Source: a virus (taxonomy: Duplodnaviria > Caudoviricetes). From it: DNA of 64,000 nucleotides. Of this stretch, positions 9,314-59,112 are shown one piece after another (the stretch's first letter is position 1; each line of letters opens with the position of its first letter). The DNA lies in IMG/VR virus record IMGVR_UViG_3300050034_000334; one strand, written 5' to 3'. The notes beneath the pieces are model-generated. The model saw nothing but the letters and a program-made list of their open reading frames with translations. It had not been told where the DNA came from and did no database searches. The position numbers were made by a program, and so were the translations under genes.

Positions 9314-10027
9314 TCATGCCAGAGCGGGTACAAATTCGATATCCCATCTATCACATGATTCCTTTGAGAGAAATTGACCCATCGCTCGCCTAGTCATCAT
9401 CTGATTGCGAATACTTTTGCGGATTTGTTCAGGAGAGTTTACCTGCCCTTTGTGTGATTCACTAAGTCTGTCAACTGTTTCCTGTGAGGCTTTCTGGCCT
9501 ATCCTCCGACTTCGAATATCAGCAATCTGCTGTTCTGACCAAGGGTTTTCTCTTCGTATCTTGGACAACAATTGCTTCTGTTCAGCACTCATAGGCCCTT
9601 TTGTCTTGCCTCTCTGTACATCACCAATTTTCTTTCTGGAGGCTGCTGTATGACAGTAGTTCCCCCTTCTTCTTCGAGTTTCAACTCTTTTTCGTATTTC
9701 TTCTTGAGACTGAACTCTTCCAGCACCACTGTACGCCTTAGCTAGACTGTTGTATCCATTGTGGAAAGCATCTAGCTTATCAATCCAGAATTGTTCTCGT
9801 TCTTCCAATTTTGCTCTGTTTGGGTTAGTAATTTCTTCAAGCACATTCCAATCCCAAACCTCTGAACCATACTTCTTCCAGGAACGAAGCAGCTTTGGGC
9901 CGGTGTGGCTCCCGTCTTTGAATCCTTGAATATGAATTTGCCATCTTCCATAAATATCCACAGAACTTCCAACGTAGGACTTCTTGGAATTCCGATTGTA
10001 TATTTGATATACACCAGCAGTCTTCAC
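9314..10027 (-). CDS. GIY-YIG homing endonuclease with NUMOD3 repeats
   Basis: GVYQIYNRNSKKSYVGSS; GYN; HTAASRKKI and ETVDRLSESHKG repeats. Confidence 0.9.
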   Translation of the reverse strand: MKTAGVYQIYNRNSKKSYVGSSVDIYGRWQIHIQGFKDGSHTGPKLLRSWKKYGSEVWDWNVLEEITNPNRAKLEEREQFWIDKLDAFHNGYNSLAKAYSGAGRVQSQEEIRKRVETRRRRGNYCHTAASRKKIGDVQRGKTKGPMSAEQKQLLSKIRRENPWSEQQIADIRSRRIGQKASQETVDRLSESHKGQVNSPEQIRKSIRNQMMTRRAMGQFLSKESCDRWDIEFVPALA

Positions 10028-21812: not shown

Positions 21813-22365
21813 CTTGCTCCTCGTGTAACCCATCCCACAATCTCTGATACTCTTCACGAACTTCTTCAGCCAAAAGAAAATCTCGTGGACAGTTGTTAGC
21901 TTTCATCAATTCCACTACGTCAGCTACATCTTTCTGACGAGTATTTGGATTACCCAAGTAACTGGATAGTTTGATTTCAATAATCTGTTGAAGACTTGCA
22001 ATGATTGGTCTCTTGGATACTTGCGTTGGCATAGGAAGTTTCAGCGGTCCACGTCCAACCGATCCTCCTCCAGGAAGTAGATCGACTTCCACTTTAGACG
22101 CACGATCAGTAACAGTCATACTTGAACCTGGATTTGCTCGAAAGCCACTGATGGACAACTTGTCTTTTGCCTCTTGTACGCTGGGAACCACCAAGTCAAC
22201 ATCGATAGTAAATCGTGGATATCCATTTTCCTGAACAGCGTACCCACCAACAACCAAAGAAGGAATTCCTGCATCTGCAAGAATGGCCACAGCACTTCTC
22301 ATTGTTTTTTCAATGTCGGTGGAGTTAGAAACCTTGCGCAGCAGCTTTGCTTTCAGGTTAGACAT
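21802..22365 (-). CDS. Pol-beta-superfamily nucleotidyltransferase (AbiEii/DUF6036-like)
   Basis: VVGGYAV...PRFTIDVDLVV, VEVDLL, K...R.KD..D. Confidence 0.8.
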   Translation of the reverse strand: MSNLKAKLLRKVSNSTDIEKTMRSAVAILADAGIPSLVVGGYAVQENGYPRFTIDVDLVVPSVQEAKDKLSISGFRANPGSSMTVTDRASKVEVDLLPGGGSVGRGPLKLPMPTQVSKRPIIASLQQIIEIKLSSYLGNPNTRQKDVADVVELMKANNCPRDFLLAEEVREEYQRLWDGLHEEQDEI

Positions 22366-25606: not shown

Positions 25607-26524
25607 TCACACCTTCATAAATTTCTTGTCTCTCAATTCTTGCATGCTCAATTTCTTCCTAGAAAGTCCGAATTTCTTGGCCCATTCATGAACTGTCATA
25701 GCACTGACGCCGTAGATATTTCCAATTTGGCGATAACCAGTGTGTTCTAAGTGAGTTCTAAGTTCTTCAACCGGCGGAATTTTCTTCATTAGACCACAAG
25801 CTGAACTGCAGTGAACTACTGTTTTGTCCCTAGTCACGAATTCTTTCTCGCACTTAGGACAAACTCGGACAAATTCAGAAATTGCACCTCTCCCTGGCAA
25901 CCAGCCTAGACGAATTCTCTCTTTAGCCTCACTCTCTGGCACCGAAATAACCTCTGAATTTTTGTACATCCACATATTTCCAAAAGAGTGATTATTTTCT
26001 CCCATTGCGAGCCTAGACATCTCTTTTCTACATTCAAGAGTATGATGCTTACCTCTACGAGATTCTGCCAATCTCCTACAAGCAGCTAGAAGTTTTGGAG
26101 TAACCCGCTTGGGAAGGACTCTAATCCTGTTCCACTTCTCCATAAATTCTCTAGCAAATTCAGGATCTCGTCGCCTTCTTTCTTGAACCTTCTGAGAGCC
26201 CAGTCTTCCCCAGGATACTCTGTCAAATTTGAAGTGAGTGTTGACGTAGTCAAACCCACCAGATCCCCCTTTTCTCAGATTCATACAAAGAGGATCTTTC
26301 CGATGAAGTTCTACTACCTCATCTTCTTTCTTCCAGGCTTCCTCCTGAGTTTCAAACTCGAAGAGAATTTCTTTCTTAAAACTTGCTGGACCATACTTTG
26401 CAACGGCTCGTATGATGTAAGTACCAGAACCAAGATACTCATCATTTGGGTTATCAGTCTTATGAACACCCAAGTAGAACTTGCCGTTGACCAAATTCAC
26501 TGTTTTGTATACAGTGTATATCAT
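25607..26524 (-). CDS. GIY-YIG homing endonuclease inside the tRNA array
   Basis: MIYTVYKTVNLVNGKFYLGVHKT...YLGSG; GGAGG RBS. Confidence 0.88.
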   Translation of the reverse strand: MIYTVYKTVNLVNGKFYLGVHKTDNPNDEYLGSGTYIIRAVAKYGPASFKKEILFEFETQEEAWKKEDEVVELHRKDPLCMNLRKGGSGGFDYVNTHFKFDRVSWGRLGSQKVQERRRRDPEFAREFMEKWNRIRVLPKRVTPKLLAACRRLAESRRGKHHTLECRKEMSRLAMGENNHSFGNMWMYKNSEVISVPESEAKERIRLGWLPGRGAISEFVRVCPKCEKEFVTRDKTVVHCSSACGLMKKIPPVEELRTHLEHTGYRQIGNIYGVSAMTVHEWAKKFGLSRKKLSMQELRDKKFMKV

Positions 26525-26568
26525 GAACCCTCCTGTACCCTCTACTTGGATACTGGAAGTCACGAAAG

Positions 26569-26641
<73 letters not shown>

Positions 26642-26656
26642 ACTACTTCTAAACTC

Positions 26657-26738
26657 TGGAGCCTTGGGAGGGACTCGAACCCCCGTTGTGTTATAGCAGA
26701 TTACAGATCTGCTGCTGTCGCCGCTGAGCCACCAAGGC
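26657..26738 (-). tRNA. Atypical tRNA, most likely Thr(TGT); Tyr(GTA) register possible
   Basis: Stem gcaga/tctgc, loop TCTGTAA, 11-nt variable region, G1-C72, C2-G71, U73, CCA. Confidence 0.75.
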
Positions 26739-27311
26739 TAGTCTCGTGACTTGAATCCTTTGTTGCATAGGACTCTTATCAGATGTTAACTTACAGTCTC
26801 CATTTACTGCATTTCTTCCTCTTCCCCAGTTTAGTGCTTTGTACGTTGGAGTGATCGCATGACAACATGGACAGAGCAATAACACGTTATCCGGAGAGTT
26901 ATCCTTCCAATCTCCATTCTCGTGTTCTAGTTCAATAGGTGCAATTCCAGTTACCAGATTGACTTCACACCATCCACAACGCTGACATTTATTTCCAAAC
27001 AAGTGAATGAGAGCTCGCTTAGTCCTTCCGTGAGTTTCTTCCTTTGGAGATAGCGTTCTTTCCAGCCAACGCTTAATCCAAATTGAAAGTTCGTAGCTGC
27101 TCTTACATTTGTTAGAGCAGTAAGTATTAGCAGATTTGATACCAGTTCCACAACCAGGACAAAACTTTACGACCTTTTCTGGTTTCTTCTTCACCAACCC
27201 CAGTTTGGTCAGATGATATCGGACATTGGTTTGACTTGCACCTAGTTGTTCCGCTATCTTCCAACTGCTAAATCCTGCTGTCCACAACCGAGTTAGCTCA
27301 ACTATATCCAT
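26691..27311 (-). CDS. HNH homing endonuclease inside the tRNA array (3' end runs into the next tRNA)
   Basis: CQRCG...LEHENGDWKDNSPDNVLLLCPCCH. Confidence 0.85.
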   Translation of the reverse strand: MDIVELTRLWTAGFSSWKIAEQLGASQTNVRYHLTKLGLVKKKPEKVVKFCPGCGTGIKSANTYCSNKCKSSYELSIWIKRWLERTLSPKEETHGRTKRALIHLFGNKCQRCGWCEVNLVTGIAPIELEHENGDWKDNSPDNVLLLCPCCHAITPTYKALNWGRGRNAVNGDCKLTSDKSPMQQRIQVTRLALVAQRRQQQICNLL

Positions 27312-27346
27312 ACCCAGATTCCTAAAGTCGGAAAACAGGTGAGCTA

Positions 27347-27423
27347 TGGAGCACCCCATCGGATTCGAACCGATGTCCACTGAGTACGAAACAGTGATCC
27401 TAAACCAACTAGACGAGAGGTGC
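27347..27423 (-). tRNA. tRNA-Thr(CGT)
   Basis: Cloverleaf, loop TTCGTAC with a U31-U39 mismatch, CCA. Confidence 0.82.
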
Positions 27424-27437
27424 ATACTACGAAACTT

Positions 27438-27513
27438 TGGTGGACGAGAATGGTCTTGAACCATCCACCTTTCCCTTATCAGGGGAATGCTCTACCACAT
27501 GAGCTACTCGTCC
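27438..27513 (-). tRNA. tRNA-Ile(GAT)
   Basis: Cloverleaf, loop CTGATAA, CCA. Confidence 0.93.
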
Positions 27514-27525
27514 ATTTTGACTCCC

Positions 27526-27557
27526 AAAACACGAATGCCGCCCTTATTCTGGCGGCA
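27526..27557 (-). terminator. Attenuator terminator hairpin upstream of the tRNA array
   Basis: tgccgcc-8nt-ggcggca followed by ttcgtgtttt; its 5' arm can instead pair with leader segment 27599-27607. Confidence 0.7.
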
Positions 27558-27582
27558 GATCATACGAGATTTTGTTGTTCTC

Positions 27583-27657
27583 TTACTCTCGCAGACTCCC
27601 ACCGCCACCCGTTTGGGTGCATGTAATGGTGATGCTAGTTTGCAACGTCTGCTTCAT
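27583..27657 (-). CDS. Thr/Ile/Gln/Cys-rich leader peptide MKQTLQTSITITCTQTGGGGSLRE
   Basis: Hand translation; thrL-like composition; ATG 7 nt after the promoter -10-like box. Confidence 0.75.
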   Translation of the reverse strand: MKQTLQTSITITCTQTGGGGSLRE

Positions 27658-27664
27658 GATTTGA

Positions 27665-27693
27665 TGATACCTCAACTTTTCCCATTCCGGGAA
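27665..27693 (-). promoter_or_regulatory. Promoter motif TTCCCGG-N16-GTATCA
   Basis: Same architecture as the copies at 54150 and 57945. Confidence 0.65.
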
Positions 27694-49699: not shown

Positions 49700-50112
49700 T
49701 CTTTGCCACGTGATCCCGGTTTATCCAGGACCTTCTGTTGCTAGGATCGTAACCGACCCCCGACAGCGATTAAGCTGCCATTGCCAGCGGAGCGAACGAA
49801 CGGACCGGGAAGGCCAGGACGTTGCTACGACGGGCGCTGATACCATTGTCGGTAGCAGTTATTGTTTCTGTGTCCGATTACGGAGGGCCACAGCGTACCG
49901 AGTTGTTATCTCTGGTCAGTTCCAATTGTCGAATCTGTTCGCCCCCATCATAAGCACTCTGGTTCCCAACTTCTGAACAGTCTCTTCTCCAGCGACCGTA
50001 TGAAATTCTAGGCGAAGTGGAGAGTGCTTATGGTGGAGGCGCGGGTCTATGCTAACCCGGTCCAAATGGCACATCACTTTGACTTCAGCTCCGAAGAGCA
50101 TACAACCATATA
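49700..50112 (-). ncRNA. ssrA: Circularly permuted (two-piece) tmRNA
   Basis: Acceptor piece ending cgcctccACCA (50031) lies upstream of the coding piece starting GGGGGCGAACAGATTCGAC (49946); G3-U70, A73; tag ATDNGISARRSNVLAFPVRSFAPLAMAA* (49856-49770) after AATAACT. Confidence 0.9.
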
Positions 50113-50116
50113 GATA

Positions 50117-50145
50117 GTCTACTGGCTATATTTGAATTCCAGGTA
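50117..50145 (-). promoter_or_regulatory. Promoter motif TACCTGG-N16-GTAGAC driving the tmRNA
   Basis: Variant of the recurring motif directly upstream of the acceptor piece. Confidence 0.6.
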
Positions 50146-56361: not shown

Positions 56362-56580
56362 TTAGGTAGATAATCCAATCCAACGGCTCGTGTGCAAACT
56401 GTGGGCAACCCACCGGGCTGCCTCTGGACTATCGATACGCTGAATATTCAGAAAAGTAAACACTTTTAATTGAACATCTGACTTTTTGCTCCATTGTATG
56501 GAATGTTCATACTGCCACACCAATCCTTGTAGACCAGGCTTCGACACCTGCAGTCGTAGTTGTGCTTCCTCTAGAGCCAA
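56362..56580 (-). CDS. Hypothetical ORF, doubtful
   Basis: Overlaps the endonuclease on the opposite strand. Confidence 0.25.
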   Translation of the reverse strand: MALEEAQLRLQVSKPGLQGLVWQYEHSIQWSKKSDVQLKVFTFLNIQRIDSPEAARWVAHSLHTSRWIGLST

Positions 56581-57304
56581 CAGTAATCGAAAACTATCTG
56601 AGGAGACTAAAGAGAAAATTAGAAGAACTCTTCAATCCAAGTATCCTGTCAGAAAATGCCCTATATGTGAAAAATTGTTCCGTCGTAAACAAGAGTACTG
56701 CAGCAGGTCTTGTGACATGAAATCTAGAATGAGAGATCCTGTCCAGAGGAAAGCAGTGTCTGATTTTATGAAATCTGCTCCTCATAAGGGCTGGAAATCG
56801 AGATCGATGTCCTCCTATGCAGAGCTGTTTTGGATTGACATTCTCGCTAGAGAACAAGTCAGCTTTATCCGTGAAAAAGTCATGTCAAAGAAGAGCTTAG
56901 GAATTGAATCCTCCGGAAGCTATTTCCTCGACTTTTTCTTTCCTCAATTGAACCTAGATTTAGAAATAGATGGTAGCCAACATCTCAATCCTGTGGCAAA
57001 AACCAAAGATGACGAACGTGATTTAATCCTAGAAAGAAATGGGATTCATGTTGTGAGAATGCCTTGGAAGGGATTGACCAGACATCTAAAATTCACATTT
57101 TCACAAGTGGAAGAAGTTCTTATAATGGTCGGGGTGAGGCATTTCGAAAGCCCAACCTCATGTTCCCAAAACATGTGCTCTACCCTTGAGCTACACCCCG
57201 ACATGTTAAACCTTTTCTGCGTGCCGGATTTGACCGGCGTTTCCGTCCTCAATGGACGGCGTGCTGTCCGCTTACGGAATCCTGCCCAGGCGATGCGTCT
57301 ATAG
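56486..57304 (+). CDS. Vsr/DUF559-like PD-(D/E)XK endonuclease with zinc fingers; frame runs on antisense through tRNA-Pro
   Basis: CSRSC repeats; YFLDFF...LEIDGSQH...DDERD...GIHVVR. Confidence 0.75.
   Translation: MLHCMECSYCHTNPCRPGFDTCSRSCASSRANSNRKLSEETKEKIRRTLQSKYPVRKCPICEKLFRRKQEYCSRSCDMKSRMRDPVQRKAVSDFMKSAPHKGWKSRSMSSYAELFWIDILAREQVSFIREKVMSKKSLGIESSGSYFLDFFFPQLNLDLEIDGSQHLNPVAKTKDDERDLILERNGIHVVRMPWKGLTRHLKFTFSQVEEVLIMVGVRHFESPTSCSQNMCSTLELHPDMLNLFCVPDLTGVSVLNGRRAVRLRNPAQAMRL
57126..57200 (-). tRNA. tRNA-Pro(TGG)
   Basis: Cloverleaf, loop TTTGGGA, CCA. Confidence 0.88.
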
Positions 57305-57388
57305 CCACAAAGTCCAGACATTCTACCTGCTGCCCTTTGTTCTCACCCGTCGGCAAGATCTCAGGCTCTATTGCACTATCGCAAACTT

Positions 57389-57465
57389 TGGTCGGGATAA
57401 CTGGATTCGAACCAGCGACCTCACCCACCCCAAGGGTGCGCTCTACCAGGCTGAGCCATATCCCG
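57389..57465 (-). tRNA. tRNA-Pro(GGG)
   Basis: Cloverleaf, loop TTGGGGT, CCA. Confidence 0.93.
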
Positions 57466-57562
57466 ACAAACTGTGCCGCGTCCGATGTTGTCTCTTGTCA
57501 ACTTGAGGCTGGTTGGCTCTTCAAGTCACATCCTAGTGCGGCTTACTACGCTCTTCAAACTT

Positions 57563-57637
57563 TGGTGGACTCGAACGGGATTGAACCGCCGACGCCAACC
57601 TCTTCAGGGTTGCGCTCTACCACTGAGCTACGAGTCC
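57563..57637 (-). tRNA. tRNA-Phe(GAA)
   Basis: Cloverleaf, loop CTGAAGA, CCA. Confidence 0.93.
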
Positions 57638-57652
57638 ACATACAGCAAAAAT

Positions 57653-57729
57653 TGGTCGGCGTGGTCAGATTTGAACTGACGGCCCCTTGTTCCCGAAACA
57701 AGTGCGCTACCAGGCTGCGCTACACACCG
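57653..57729 (-). tRNA. tRNA-Pro(CGG)
   Basis: Cloverleaf, loop TTCGGGA, CCA. Confidence 0.93.
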
Positions 57730-57840
57730 ATGTTACATAGCACAGTTGTCTAGGATTGGAGAACGGAATTGTGTGAGGAATTTCTTCTCACCCTCCTGCT
57801 AGAGCAACTGGCGTCGCCCGAGGAGAGGAGTCTTTAGGAC

Positions 57841-57900
57841 TTAACCCTCCGCGAGCCTTGCAGGTTGCGGTCGAAATCGAAATGTTGGTCGCATTCTCAT
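57841..57900 (-). CDS. Pro/Phe/Arg-rich putative leader peptide MRMRPTFRFRPQPARLAEG
   Basis: Hand translation; ATG 7 nt after the promoter -10-like box; precedes the Pro/Phe tRNA array. Confidence 0.6.
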   Translation of the reverse strand: MRMRPTFRFRPQPARLAEG

Positions 57901-57907
57901 GATCTCA

Positions 57908-57973
57908 CTCTACTGACCTGGTTCGAAAACCGGGTACAAATCGATGATACCTCAGTTTTTGGAAATACGGGAA
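57908..57973 (-). promoter_or_regulatory. Tandem promoters: TACCCGG-N16-GTAGAG (57908-57936) and TTCCCGT-N16-GTATCA (57945-57973)
   Basis: Both motif classes, each with an exact 16-nt spacer. Confidence 0.7.
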
Positions 57974-57984
57974 GAAAAATTTGC

Positions 57985-58146
57985 CTAGGACATCCAACCA
58001 CGAAAACGGAGCTTGGTGGGAGCATCCTCTAGAAGCTGTTTGCCCATACGACGCATGGCCTTGGCCGCGAACTTCTTGCGGAATTGACGAGCCTTGCTGG
58101 GACGCTTGCAGCTGACGTCGATCTGCTCAATGGAGACGAATTTCAT
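57985..58146 (-). CDS. Small basic protein (MKFVSIEQIDVSCKRPSKARQFRKK...), 53 aa
   Basis: Hand translation; AAGGTGA RBS. Confidence 0.7.
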   Translation of the reverse strand: MKFVSIEQIDVSCKRPSKARQFRKKFAAKAMRRMGKQLLEDAPTKLRFRGWMS

Positions 58147-58218
58147 GTCTTCACCTTTTCTGAGCTATACTGAACTCAAGTTCACTGAATAAGTGAAACA
58201 GTCGTTGAAAAGTGTATC

Positions 58219-58512
58219 TTAATCGTTGAAAAGTGTAACCTTGATGCCGCGAGCCTCAGGAACGGTGCGAAGACTTTCGCGAGTGGGAATCAGTTCGTAT
58301 GCCAGCAGGTCGCCTTCTTCATCGCGAACCACGTTGTCGACTACGAAAGTCACTTCTTTGCGTCCAACAATCACCAGGCCCTCATCGCAGGCATCAGGAT
58401 AAACCCGCTGGAAAATGCTGCCGCCACCTTGAAGATCGCTCAGTTCGGCGCAAAGGACCGTTTGTCCGTCTTCCGTGGTCTTGGTGAATTTCTGGATGCT
58501 AAAAGTTGCCAT
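58219..58512 (-). CDS. Hypothetical protein
   Basis: Promoter motif and GGAGG upstream. Confidence 0.75.
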   Translation of the reverse strand: MATFSIQKFTKTTEDGQTVLCAELSDLQGGGSIFQRVYPDACDEGLVIVGRKEVTFVVDNVVRDEEGDLLAYELIPTRESLRTVPEARGIKVTLFND

Positions 58513-58532
58513 TTGTCATTCCCTCCCTCATT

Positions 58533-58561
58533 CTCTACTGACAGAGAACTCGGATCGGGTA
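58533..58561 (-). promoter_or_regulatory. Promoter motif TACCCGA-N16-GTAGAG
   Basis: Exact motif. Confidence 0.7.
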
Positions 58562-58569
58562 ACAGACCG

Positions 58570-59112
58570 CTAGTCCTTCCACTTTCTGTTCTTGCGACCG
58601 ATCTGCTTCATCCTCTTCATCCACTTGTCCATCAGCATCGAACGATCCAGCTTCTTCAGGTAGTCCACGATCAGGACTCCGTTCAGATGATCGATCTCAT
58701 GCTGAATGCGGCGAGCCTCTTCACCAGTGAAGGTGCGGCTGAATGGAATGAGCTTCACTTCCGGATCGTCATCCTCACCAATTGCGGTGATCGTGATTTC
58801 CCGATAGCGAGGGACTGAAACCCTGATCTGCGGAAGGCTGAGACATCCTTCCAGCTTGGCATCCTTCTCTTCAGAGTGAGCAGTGATGACTGGATTGACC
58901 AGTCCTAGTAGCATTCCACTGTTGGACTGATAGACAATGATGCGCCGGGTATCTCCTGCCTGATTGGCAGCTAAACCAGCCGCCTTATGACTATCCACCA
59001 CGATCTTCATGTAGTGCAGGATGTCGAGCGTGCCTTCGATATCAGCCGGGAAGTCCACCGGAATACACGGATGCAACAGGATTGAATCTGGGTACTGCTT
59101 TACTGGCATCAT
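58570..59112 (-). CDS. def: Peptide deformylase
   Basis: Motifs AAGLAANQAG, EGCLS, QHEIDHLNG. Confidence 0.95.
   Translation of the reverse strand: MMPVKQYPDSILLHPCIPVDFPADIEGTLDILHYMKIVVDSHKAAGLAANQAGDTRRIIVYQSNSGMLLGLVNPVITAHSEEKDAKLEGCLSLPQIRVSVPRYREITITAIGEDDDPEVKLIPFSRTFTGEEARRIQHEIDHLNGVLIVDYLKKLDRSMLMDKWMKRMKQIGRKNRKWKD

What the first reader, a model, noticed from the sequence alone, without database searches (positions are those of the whole stretch)
57735..57973. Second codon-matched leader: Pro/Phe array
Seen: leaderless-type ORF ATG AGA ATG CGA CCA ACA TTT CGA TTT CGA CCG CAA CCT GCA AGG CTC GCG GAG GGT TAA. It uses CCA, CCG and CCT once each and TTT twice, and the array encodes exactly Pro-TGG, Pro-CGG, Pro-GGG and Phe-GAA. 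Downstream is a long hairpin (gggcgac-gcca-gttgctc inside ctcct/aggag arms) whose 5' arm can alternatively pair with the leader end (ggaggg). Caveats: there is no clear U-tract, and five Arg codons have no matching tRNA here. Independent recurrence at a second array makes this look like a system rather than a coincidence.
Basis: partly seen in the sequence, partly recalled or inferred. Interest (0 to 1): 0.85.

Follow-up and report, generated by a model that had tools for sequence, protein, structure and literature searches.

The report
Atypical leader before phage Pro/Phe tRNAs
A jumbo phage from peat puts a tiny reading frame, written partly in proline and phenylalanine codons, plus a conserved switchable RNA fold in front of its proline/phenylalanine tRNA genes. 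It looks like the odd, terminator-less sibling of clear "make tRNAs only when ribosomes run short of them" switches at the phage's other tRNA arrays and in a cultured relative.

Summary
A 19-codon ORF (minus strand, 57900-57841) has 3 Pro and 2 Phe codons and lies 112 nt upstream of tRNA-Pro(CGG), Phe(GAA), Pro(GGG) and Pro(TGG).

The codon match alone is only marginal: P about 0.1 by count and 0.01-0.02 by density. The context is strong.
- An exact 12-mer promoter-like motif occurs only twice in 64 kb, once before each tRNA array.
- The Thr/Ile/Gln/Cys array in this window has a textbook codon-matched leader-peptide attenuator.
- So does a Val/Gly/Asp/Ala/Glu array in a near-identical contig.
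- So do three arrays of the cultured relative Tunturiibacter phage Tunturi_5. All five have canonical terminators.

Leader 2 has none. Its frame survives a +3 nt indel and two synonymous changes in a relative about 10% diverged. Its last four codons form the left arm of a conserved, unusually stable fold with three mutually exclusive pairings (A:B, B:C, C:D). Only the last Pro codon is placed so that a stalled ribosome would flip that fold.

My best reading (about 0.45) is a divergent, terminator-less attenuator resembling Salmonella mgtP. The rivals are a chance ORF in a structured pre-tRNA leader, or a decayed relic.

This scan has already noted the same design in at least 13 other phage genomes. 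I found no published description.

The parts
57943..57973 (-). Promoter-like element shared with the other tRNA array: TTCCCG (57973-57968), 18 nt, TATCAT (57949-57944), inside the exact 12-mer TGAGGTATCATC (57954-57943).
   Evidence: The 12-mer occurs with 0 mismatches only at 57954-57943 and 27674-27663, both just upstream of a tRNA array. It is present in all relatives. The sigma-70 consensus scan does not call it, so its role as a promoter is inferred.
57916..57935 (-). 5'-UTR hairpin ACCCGGTTTTCGAACCAGGT with a UNCG-type tetraloop.
   Evidence: It is part of the minimum-free-energy fold. The relatives keep it with changes: loop UUCG in the window and L001, UCCG in L022, and one stem pair G-C in the window but G-U in L001 and L022. 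These comparisons are by inspection of three haplotypes only.
57907..57912 (-). TAGAGT, invariant in all three haplotypes, 6 nt before the ATG. It is either a weak -10 (leaderless start) or part of a weak GTGA-type ribosome-binding site.
   Evidence: GTAGAGTGA is conserved while the 8 nt before it vary. The geometry equals TATCAT-N6-ATG of leader 1. Its function is not shown.
57841..57900 (-). Leader ORF 2: MRMRPTFRFRPQPARLAEG plus stop. Pro codons are at 5, 11 and 13; Phe codons at 7 and 9.
   Evidence: The ORF is identical in L001, L024 and L026. In L022 and L023 it reads MRMQRPQFRFRPQPAKLAEG: an in-frame +3 nt insertion, CCT>CCC and GCA>GCG (both synonymous), ACA>CAA and AGG>AAG.
57845..57856 (-). 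Region A (GCTCGCGGAGGG): the last four codons of the ORF, forming the left arm of stem A:B.
   Evidence: A:B folds at -21.5 kcal/mol and is part of the minimum-free-energy fold. A 132-nt run perfectly identical to L022 starts here.
57813..57830 (-). Region B (CTCCTCTCCTCGGGCGAC): pairs with either A or C.
   Evidence: The C at 57816 is A in the L001 haplotype with no compensating change, which weakens A:B to -17.7 and B:C to -14.1 kcal/mol.
57791..57812 (-).
   Evidence: B:C -18.9 to -23 kcal/mol and C:D -23.2 kcal/mol.
57740..57753 (-). Region D (CTAGACAACTGTGC): closes the large C:D hairpin. It is followed by TATGTAACAT (no U-tract) and then the tRNA.
   Evidence: the 127-nt post-ORF RNA folds at -46.1 kcal/mol, z = -4.0, with 0 of 200 shuffles as stable. 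No terminator is called.
57653..57729 (-). tRNA-Pro(CGG), first gene of the array. Three very different alleles exist among the haplotypes.
57563..57637 (-). tRNA-Phe(GAA)
57389..57465 (-). tRNA-Pro(GGG), absent from the L022 haplotype.
57126..57200 (-). tRNA-Pro(TGG)
27536..27674 (-). Sibling control region of array 1, given for context: the same 12-mer (27674-27663); a leaderless-type ORF MKQTLQTSITITCTQTGGGGSLRE (27657-27583); and the terminator TGCCGCC-loop-GGCGGCA plus TTCGTGTTTT (27557-27536), 22 nt before tRNA-Ile.

Best explanation
The 230 nt between the shared promoter motif and tRNA-Pro(CGG) form the 5' control region of the Pro/Phe tRNA operon. I read it as a divergent member of a clade-wide set of codon-matched leader-peptide attenuators on phage tRNA arrays.

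Proposed mechanism (inferred, not shown):
- The 19-codon ORF is translated, and its last four codons are the left arm of stem A:B.
- With no ribosome on A, A:B forms first and leaves C free to pair with D. This gives the default two-hairpin fold.
- A ribosome held on or near A, stalled with the last Pro codon (codon 13) in its A site or slow from there to the stop, blocks A:B. B then pairs with C while the polymerase is just past C, and D stays single-stranded.
- Which fold lets more polymerase or more mature tRNA through is unknown, because no intrinsic terminator is present.

The nearest precedent is Salmonella mgtP. That is a short Pro-codon ORF whose last four codons are the left arm of a stem, with alternative stems, no intrinsic terminator and possibly Rho.

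Shown: the ORF, the codons, the promoter motif, the alternative pairings, conservation, and the canonical siblings. Inferred: translation, the stalling response, the output step and the direction of regulation.
For: - The exact 12-mer TGAGGTATCATC occurs only upstream of the two arrays in 64 kb.
- The siblings are clear. Leader 1: 12 of 24 codons cognate, top of 513 small ORFs in the window, canonical terminator. Leader 3 in G002: 20 of 34 cognate, terminator abutting tRNA-Val. Ribosome masking swaps terminator for antiterminator in both, over a range of stall positions.
- Tunturi_5 leaders a, b and c each have a canonical terminator. In one search a stall removed the terminator at one position in b and at some positions in c, but at none in a.
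- Tunturi_5 is the nearest cultured relative: helicase 52% identical against 30% for the next hit.
- Each of the six leaders is most enriched for its own array within its own phage. Leader 2's ratio (2.8x) equals those of its siblings. Its density-based P is 0.01-0.02.
- In L022 and L023, about 89-91% identical in flanking genes, the frame survives a +3 nt indel and both third-position changes are synonymous. All 5 Pro/Phe codons are kept, while the 5' UTR carries a +2 nt indel.
- The longest identical run in 2.9 kb aligned is 132 nt, against 80 nt for the next. It starts exactly at region A and ends 5 nt into the tRNA.
- The post-ORF RNA is unusually stable, z = -4.0. A:B, B:C and C:D are mutually exclusive and near-isoenergetic.
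- A ribosome at codon 13 through to the stop flips A:B to B:C in the co-transcriptional window.
- In L022 a 161-aa gene sits between the upstream gene and the promoter, so the promoter-leader-fold module travels with the array.
- The mgtP precedent is documented in PMC3641672.
Against: - There is no intrinsic terminator between the ORF and the tRNA, whereas 5 of 5 siblings have one.
- By raw count the codon match is compatible with chance, P about 0.1.
- Stalls at Pro5, Phe7, Phe9 and Pro11 leave A:B intact, so the Phe codons have no evident role.
- In full-length minimum-free-energy folds C:D wins whatever the ribosome position.
- Taken literally with C:D as the stop, slow decoding early in the ORF would lower tRNA output rather than raise it.
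- Five Arg codons match no tRNA of this array.
- The Shine-Dalgarno match is weak (GTGA only).
- The L001 haplotype has an uncompensated change in B, and a 546-nt antisense endonuclease gene sits between the fold and the tRNA.
- The 132-nt identity could come from recent gene conversion around a swapped tRNA cassette rather than from selection.
- Only three haplotypes exist, so there is no covariation test.
- Metatranscriptome data are contigs only and show no RNA ends.
Confidence: 0.45

Rival explanations
1. The ORF is a chance ORF. The region is simply the transcribed 5' leader of the tRNA operon, and its two conserved hairpins serve RNA stability, RNase processing or pre-tRNA release. The array is expressed from the shared promoter with no sensing of decoding.
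For: - The count-based P is about 0.1.
- There is no terminator.
- Four of the five cognate codons are badly placed.
- Non-cognate Arg codons are as frequent as Pro plus Phe.
- The ribosome-binding site is weak.
- The most conserved part is the RNA fold, not the ORF: 0 changes in 132 nt against 5 substitutions plus an indel in the ORF.
- Several Tunturi_5 tRNAs (Pro-CGG, Pro-GGG, Ile, Gly) sit behind protein genes with no leader.
Against: - The frame is kept across a +3 nt indel, with synonymous third-position changes.
- The ORF's last four codons are exactly the left arm of A:B.
- Enrichment for its own array is as high as in the clear siblings, and the density-based P is 0.01-0.02.
- Every other array examined in this clade that begins at its own upstream intergenic region has a codon-matched leader.
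Confidence: 0.3
2. It is a relic. An ancestral canonical attenuator lost its terminator during the repeated, endonuclease-associated swapping of the first tRNA cassette. The ORF and part of the fold persist, but regulation is gone or vestigial.
For: - The segment from just after GGGTGAGA through tRNA-Pro(CGG) differs completely between the window and L001, which carries a DUF559-type endonuclease gene there.
- tRNA-Pro(CGG) has three very different alleles, with breakpoints at the fold or at the tRNA 5' end.
- In L001 the partner of region C is followed by the more terminator-like tail UUUGUGUUCU.
- All siblings have terminators.
Against: - A relic should decay, yet the fold is the most conserved stretch in the neighbourhood between the window and L022.
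- The fold is far more stable than shuffles.
- The ORF frame is maintained.
Confidence: 0.2

Closest known systems
Salmonella mgtP (and mgtL) proline-codon leader ORFs of the mgtCBR and mgtA leaders (PMC3641672; the mgtL details are from my own knowledge)
   Same: A short ORF (17 codons against 19 here) with Pro codons in its second half. The last four codons form the left arm of a stem-loop. There are alternative stem-loops further down and no intrinsic terminator in the leader. Stalling at the Pro codons is what matters.
   Different: mgtP has three consecutive Pro codons and controls protein-coding genes in a bacterium. Here the Pro codons are spaced (5, 11, 13) and mixed with Phe, the regulated genes are the tRNAs that read those codons, and the setting is a phage. 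No sequence homology was found. Rho involvement is untested in both.
Classical leader-peptide transcription attenuators (trpL, hisL, pheL, thrL, ilvL; pheM of pheST). General mechanism from established knowledge.
   Same: Promoter, then a short ORF enriched in codons for the sensed aminoacyl-tRNA, then successive mutually exclusive pairings 1:2, 2:3 and 3:4, with region 1 overlapping the end of the ORF.
   Different: The 3:4 equivalent (C:D) has a 50-nt structured loop and no U-tract. Most regulatory codons lie upstream of region 1. The target is a tRNA operon. There is no Rfam leader-family match.
Codon-matched leader attenuators on phage tRNA arrays: leader 1 of this window, leader 3 of contig G002, Tunturi_5 leaders a, b and c (my), and unpublished notes of this scan on other phages
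   Same: Position directly upstream of a tRNA array. Enrichment for the array's own amino acids (2.8x). The ORF's 3' end is embedded in an alternative pairing. The promoter motif is the same as leader 1's.
   Different: It is the only one without an intrinsic terminator. It has the lowest density of cognate codons (5 of 19 against roughly 50-60% in the others). It has a 40-nt structured 5' UTR, whereas leader 1 starts 6 nt after the TATCAT hexamer and the other siblings' 5' ends are not mapped.
T-box riboswitches
   Same: They couple expression of translation-apparatus genes to tRNA status.
   Different: T-boxes bind uncharged tRNA directly through a specifier codon and the T-box sequence, with no leader peptide. 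There is no Rfam T-box match here.

Membership tests
Leader-peptide (ribosome-mediated) transcription attenuator, trp/his/thr type | Short ORF between the promoter and the regulated genes | tested here: met
   A 19-codon ORF at 57900-57841, downstream of the shared promoter motif and 112 nt upstream of the first tRNA.
Leader-peptide (ribosome-mediated) transcription attenuator, trp/his/thr type | ORF enriched in codons of the sensed aminoacyl-tRNA beyond chance | tested here: inconclusive
   5 of 19 codons are Pro or Phe. P is 0.09-0.11 by count and 0.01-0.02 by density.
Leader-peptide (ribosome-mediated) transcription attenuator, trp/his/thr type | Regulatory codons placed so that a stalled ribosome masks region 1 | tested here: inconclusive
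   Only Pro-13 qualifies. Stalls at Pro5, Phe9 and Pro11 leave A:B intact. Phe7 does so at the +15 edge, but at +12 B:C is narrowly the minimum.
Leader-peptide (ribosome-mediated) transcription attenuator, trp/his/thr type | Successive mutually exclusive pairings (1:2, 2:3, 3:4) | tested here: met
   A:B -21.5, B:C -18.9 to -23 and C:D -23.2 kcal/mol, sharing arms.
Leader-peptide (ribosome-mediated) transcription attenuator, trp/his/thr type | 3:4 is an intrinsic terminator (GC-rich stem plus U-tract) | tested here: not met
   No minus-strand terminator is called in 56900-58700. C:D is followed by UAUGUAACAU.
Leader-peptide (ribosome-mediated) transcription attenuator, trp/his/thr type | The ORF is translated and its translation acts in cis | not testable with these tools
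   The evidence is indirect: the frame is kept across a +3 nt indel and there are two synonymous changes in L022. RNA data are contigs only.
Codon-matched leader attenuators of phage tRNA arrays (siblings in this clade) | Leader most enriched for the amino acids of its own array | tested here: met
   2.8x for its own array against 0.6x and 0.85x for the other two arrays.
Codon-matched leader attenuators of phage tRNA arrays (siblings in this clade) | Canonical terminator within about 100 nt upstream of the first tRNA | tested here: not met
   Present in 5 of 5 siblings and absent here.
Codon-matched leader attenuators of phage tRNA arrays (siblings in this clade) | The 3' part of the ORF pairs with an arm of the downstream hairpin | tested here: met
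   Codons 16-19 (region A) pair with region B, the 5' arm of hairpin B:C.
mgtP/mgtL-type terminator-less Pro-codon attenuator | Pro-codon ORF whose last codons form the left arm of a stem with an alternative fold, and no intrinsic terminator | tested here: met
   compared with the description in PMC3641672. This is a resemblance of design, not homology.
mgtP/mgtL-type terminator-less Pro-codon attenuator | Rho-dependent termination controlled by the fold | not testable with these tools
   The only hint is a 40-nt patch with 33% C and 7% G (about 57785-57746) that is paired within C:D and free in the B:C state. It is short for a Rho loading site.
T-box riboswitch | Match to the T-box covariance model | tested here: not met
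   No Rfam hit at the gathering threshold or at E <= 10 in 57700-58000.

The most novel reading that the evidence does not exclude
Leader 2 is a working sensor of Pro-tRNA (perhaps also Phe-tRNA) supply that gates its own tRNA operon without an intrinsic terminator. It would act through Rho or through structure-dependent processing. That would make it a second mechanistic class within an unpublished, widespread family of self-tuning phage tRNA arrays, in which each array is switched on only when ribosomes run short of the very tRNAs it encodes.
Probability: 0.3. Interest if true: 0.85.

Novelty: new variant of a known kind. Interest (0 to 1): 0.68.

Why it matters
Why phages carry tRNA genes, and how they time and dose them, is a long-standing question. 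A leader peptide written in the codons of the tRNAs that follow would give direct product feedback. The phage would measure decoding capacity for exactly those codons and top it up, for example when host tRNAs are depleted or cleaved.

This report adds three things:
- Independent evidence that the design is real in this clade, with five canonical examples.
- A cultured phage-host pair, Tunturi_5 on Tunturiibacter psychrotolerans, in which it can be tested directly.
- An atypical, terminator-less case that either marks a second mechanism or shows how such switches decay next to mobile endonuclease genes.

In the paper library I searched I found no description of leader-peptide attenuation of tRNA operons.

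Tried and rejected
- Whole genome: none is held for this window.
- More relatives: protein and DNA scans of IMG/VR, the one metagenome scan and a protein search gave only three haplotypes. These are the window; L001, L024 and L026; and L022 and L023. L025 was a chance match. L002-L004 carry a homolog of the 97-aa neighbouring gene but no tRNAs.
- Rfam: no leader, T-box or other family matched at E <= 10 for leader 2 or leader 1.
- Metatranscriptomes: four peat or wetland runs hold the region, but only as contigs. The contig breaks coincide with strain variants (57816, 57786, 57725), so nothing can be said about RNA ends, strand or attenuation.
- Full-length ribosome-masked minimum-free-energy folding showed no switch for leader 2. 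Only the co-transcriptional version did.
- Other ORFs in the region were rejected. These include a TTG-start mini-ORF at the predicted transcript start and a GTG ORF directly after AGGAGG in region C. They have a poor start context and no codon match.
- An internal promoter candidate, TTCTCC-N18-TATGTA, lies just before the tRNA. I noted it but could not support it.
- The TFRF match between leader 2 (codons 6-9) and Tunturi_5 leader b depends on which ATG starts leader b. No DNA homology backs it, and T6 is Q in L022. I treat it as possibly coincidental.
- Streptomyces phage CeilingFan, a tRNA BLAST hit, has single tRNAs interleaved with small genes and is not comparable.
- The C-rich patch as a Rho loading site is weak and short.

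Full report
**What is there**

The window is part of a jumbo phage from peat. It carries a permuted tmRNA, a peptide deformylase, a helicase and a polymerase, and ten tRNA genes on the minus strand in two arrays.

The second array is Pro-CGG (57729-57653), Phe-GAA (57637-57563), Pro-GGG (57465-57389) and Pro-TGG (57200-57126). It uses CCA, CCG and CCT once each, TTT twice, and five Arg codons. The downstream hairpin and its alternative pairing with the end of the ORF are real. There is no U-tract terminator.

**Is the codon match more than chance?**

On its own, barely.
- An ATG ORF with at least five Pro/Phe codons turns up in 9-11% of shuffled or natural segments of the same length.
- With a length-normalised binomial score the figure is 1-2%.

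**Context in this genome**

The exact 12-mer TGAGGTATCATC occurs only twice in 64 kb, at 57954-57943 and 27674-27663. Each copy lies just upstream of one of the two arrays, within TTCCCG-N18-TATCAT.

At the first array (Ile, Thr x3, Gln, Cys) the motif is followed six bases later by MKQTLQTSITITCTQTGGGGSLRE.
- 12 of its 24 codons are Thr, Ile, Gln or Cys.
- It ranks first of 513 small ORFs in the window for that amino-acid set.
- A called terminator lies 22 nt before tRNA-Ile.
- Masking the RNA as a stalled ribosome would replaces the terminator with a GGCGGUGGG:CUGCCGCC antiterminator. A ribosome at the stop codon, or no ribosome, leaves the terminator in place.

The near-identical contig G002 (IMG/VR, 55 kb) extends beyond the window and holds a third array: Val, Gly, Asp, Ala and Glu tRNAs.
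- It is preceded by MKSMVEFVGAVATVVAAEAAEGVDTGHLSLVRIS, with 20 of 34 codons cognate.
- A perfect terminator abuts tRNA-Val.
- It shows the same masking behaviour.

**Context in a cultured relative**

The window's helicase is 52% identical to that of Tunturiibacter phage Tunturi_5 (308 kb, host an Acidobacteriota isolate). The next hit is at 30%. In Tunturi_5 three arrays that begin after an intergenic region are each preceded by a small ORF and a called terminator:
- MKTLCLSSYCLSSSLSLS... precedes Leu, Cys, Tyr and Ser tRNAs.
- MQHVSTFRFAVPATAGNPAGQQGTNACDTGGG... precedes Gln, Gly, Thr, Pro, His, Ala and Phe tRNAs.
- gp308, rich in D, R, K, V, W, E and M, precedes Trp, Asp, Met, Lys, Val, Arg and Glu tRNAs.

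Ribosome masking in Tunturi_5 was less uniform than in this window. A stall removed the terminator at one position in leader b and at some positions in leader c. In leader a the terminator persisted in every state, although a complementary upstream segment exists by inspection.

All five siblings score P <= 0.005 against natural segments. Within each phage every leader is most enriched for its own array, and leader 2's ratio (2.8x) is as high as the others. When a tRNA sits in a different array in the two phages (Cys, Gln, Pro, Phe), its codons sit in the corresponding leader.

The paper describing Tunturi_5 mentions neither leaders nor attenuation. Three literature searches found no description of leader-peptide control of tRNA operons.

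This scan has, however, noted the same design on other DNA, in at least 13 other phage genomes. Two follow-up reports also call it undescribed, and other notes describe two more arrays of this same genome. I could not check those notes and do not count them as evidence.

**Leader 2 in relatives**

Only three haplotypes could be found.
- L001, L024 and L026 have an identical ORF, one uncompensated C>A change in the hairpin (57816), and a 546-nt replacement right after GGGTGAGA. The replacement carries an antisense DUF559-type endonuclease gene and a different tRNA-Pro(CGG) allele.
- L022 and L023 are about 89-91% identical in the flanking genes. There a 161-aa gene separates the upstream gene from the promoter, so the promoter-leader-fold module travels with the array.
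- The L022 ORF is MRMQRPQFRFRPQPAKLAEG. It has an in-frame three-base insertion, two synonymous third-position changes and two replacements, and all five Pro/Phe codons are kept. The 5' UTR has a two-base indel.
- The array in L022 lacks Pro-GGG, yet the third Pro codon there is CCC. The 'one codon per isoacceptor' detail therefore does not hold.
- From region A (57856) to five bases into the tRNA the two haplotypes are identical over 132 nt. This is the longest identical run in 2.9 kb aligned; the next is 80 nt.
- This 127-nt RNA folds far better than shuffles, z = -4.0.

**Anatomy of the fold**

Four segments give three mutually exclusive pairings:
- A is the last four codons, 57856-57845.
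- B is 57830-57813.
- C is 57812-57791.
- D is 57753-57740.

The default fold is A:B plus C:D. In a co-transcriptional simulation, a ribosome with its A site anywhere from Pro-13 to the stop codon makes B:C the best fold at the moment the polymerase has just passed C. Stalls at Pro5, Phe7, Phe9 or Pro11 generally leave A:B intact.

C:D has a 50-nt structured loop and is followed by UAUGUAACAU, so it is not a canonical terminator. In the L001 haplotype the equivalent stem is followed by UUUGUGUUCU.

**Interpretation**

This leader, however, is its outlier.
- In favour of function: the shared promoter motif, a maintained frame, an own-array enrichment equal to the siblings, an ORF end embedded in a conserved switchable fold, and the module's linkage to the array.
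- Against: no terminator where five of five siblings have one, poor placement of four of the five cognate codons, many non-cognate Arg codons, and a weak ribosome-binding site. The sequence identity could also come from gene conversion around a frequently swapped tRNA cassette next to a homing-endonuclease site.

The closest documented design is Salmonella mgtP. That is a 17-codon Pro-codon ORF whose last four codons are the left arm of a stem, with alternative stems and no intrinsic terminator, possibly acting through Rho (PMC3641672).

I put about 0.45 on a functional, translation-coupled switch of that kind. Its output step and direction are unresolved. I put about 0.30 on a chance ORF within a structured pre-tRNA leader, and about 0.20 on a decayed attenuator.

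It should not be filed as a classical attenuator, because the defining terminator was tested for and not found.

Noticed in passing
L028 (Tunturiibacter phage Tunturi_5, PP885688.1 229500-256500): 1657-1815, 9723-9976, 22074-22337: Three tRNA arrays of this cultured jumbo phage are each preceded by a small ORF enriched in the array's own amino acids, followed by a canonical terminator. One of these ORFs is annotated as hypothetical protein gp308. This gives a culturable test system for the whole design.
   Followed up: partly
L021 (G002:C1:22000-27600) 1868-2026: A third array of the same phage lineage (Val, Gly, Asp, Ala and Glu tRNAs) has the leader MKSMVEFVGAVATVVAAEAAEGVD... and a 10-bp terminator whose T-tract abuts tRNA-Val. 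It lies beyond the window's end.
   Followed up: partly
window 56486-57304 (+) and L001 6672-7200 (antisense): DUF559-type endonuclease genes sit antisense inside or next to the Pro/Phe array. The window copy's ORF runs on across the antisense of tRNA-Pro(TGG). A homolog in L001 is inserted between leader 2's fold and tRNA-Pro(CGG). They are probably mobile homing endonucleases that drive swapping of tRNA cassettes.
   Followed up: partly
window 57653-57729; L001 7204-7280; L022 5439-5512: tRNA-Pro(CGG) exists as three strongly divergent alleles with compensatory stem changes. The breakpoints lie exactly at the tRNA 5' end or just after the leader hairpin, while the flanks are near-identical.
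   Followed up: no
window 57201-57388 (-): A 188-nt spacer with several small hairpins lies between tRNA-Pro(GGG) and tRNA-Pro(TGG). It is conserved in L001, but it is absent, together with Pro-GGG, from L022. There is no Rfam match at E <= 1.
   Followed up: partly
window 58157-58222: A 66-nt segment between the 97-aa and 53-aa genes contains a direct repeat of TCGTTGAAAAGTGTA. It is missing (replaced by CAG) in contigs of three metatranscriptome runs, and missing in L001 and L022.
   Followed up: no
window 49723-50139 (-): A circularly permuted (two-piece type) tmRNA gene is called by Rfam (RF04321 at 64.8 bits, RF01849 at 61.6 bits).
   Followed up: no
window 25607-26626 (-) and 26691-27464 (-): Two protein ORFs (339 and 257 aa) are interleaved with the tRNAs of array 1. 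The 257-aa frame as listed overlaps tRNA-Thr(TGT), tRNA-Thr(CGT) and the 3' end of tRNA-Ile, so its real start must lie further in. By eye they resemble GIY-YIG and HNH-type endonucleases. I did not test this.
   Followed up: no
window 57466-57562 (-): The spacer between tRNA-Phe and tRNA-Pro(GGG) contains a CGTAGTA motif. It resembles motifs 8-15 nt upstream of several leader start codons (leader 3; Tunturi_5 a and b; CCGTAGAG before leader 2 in L001 and L022). It may be a promoter element of this clade.
   Followed up: no
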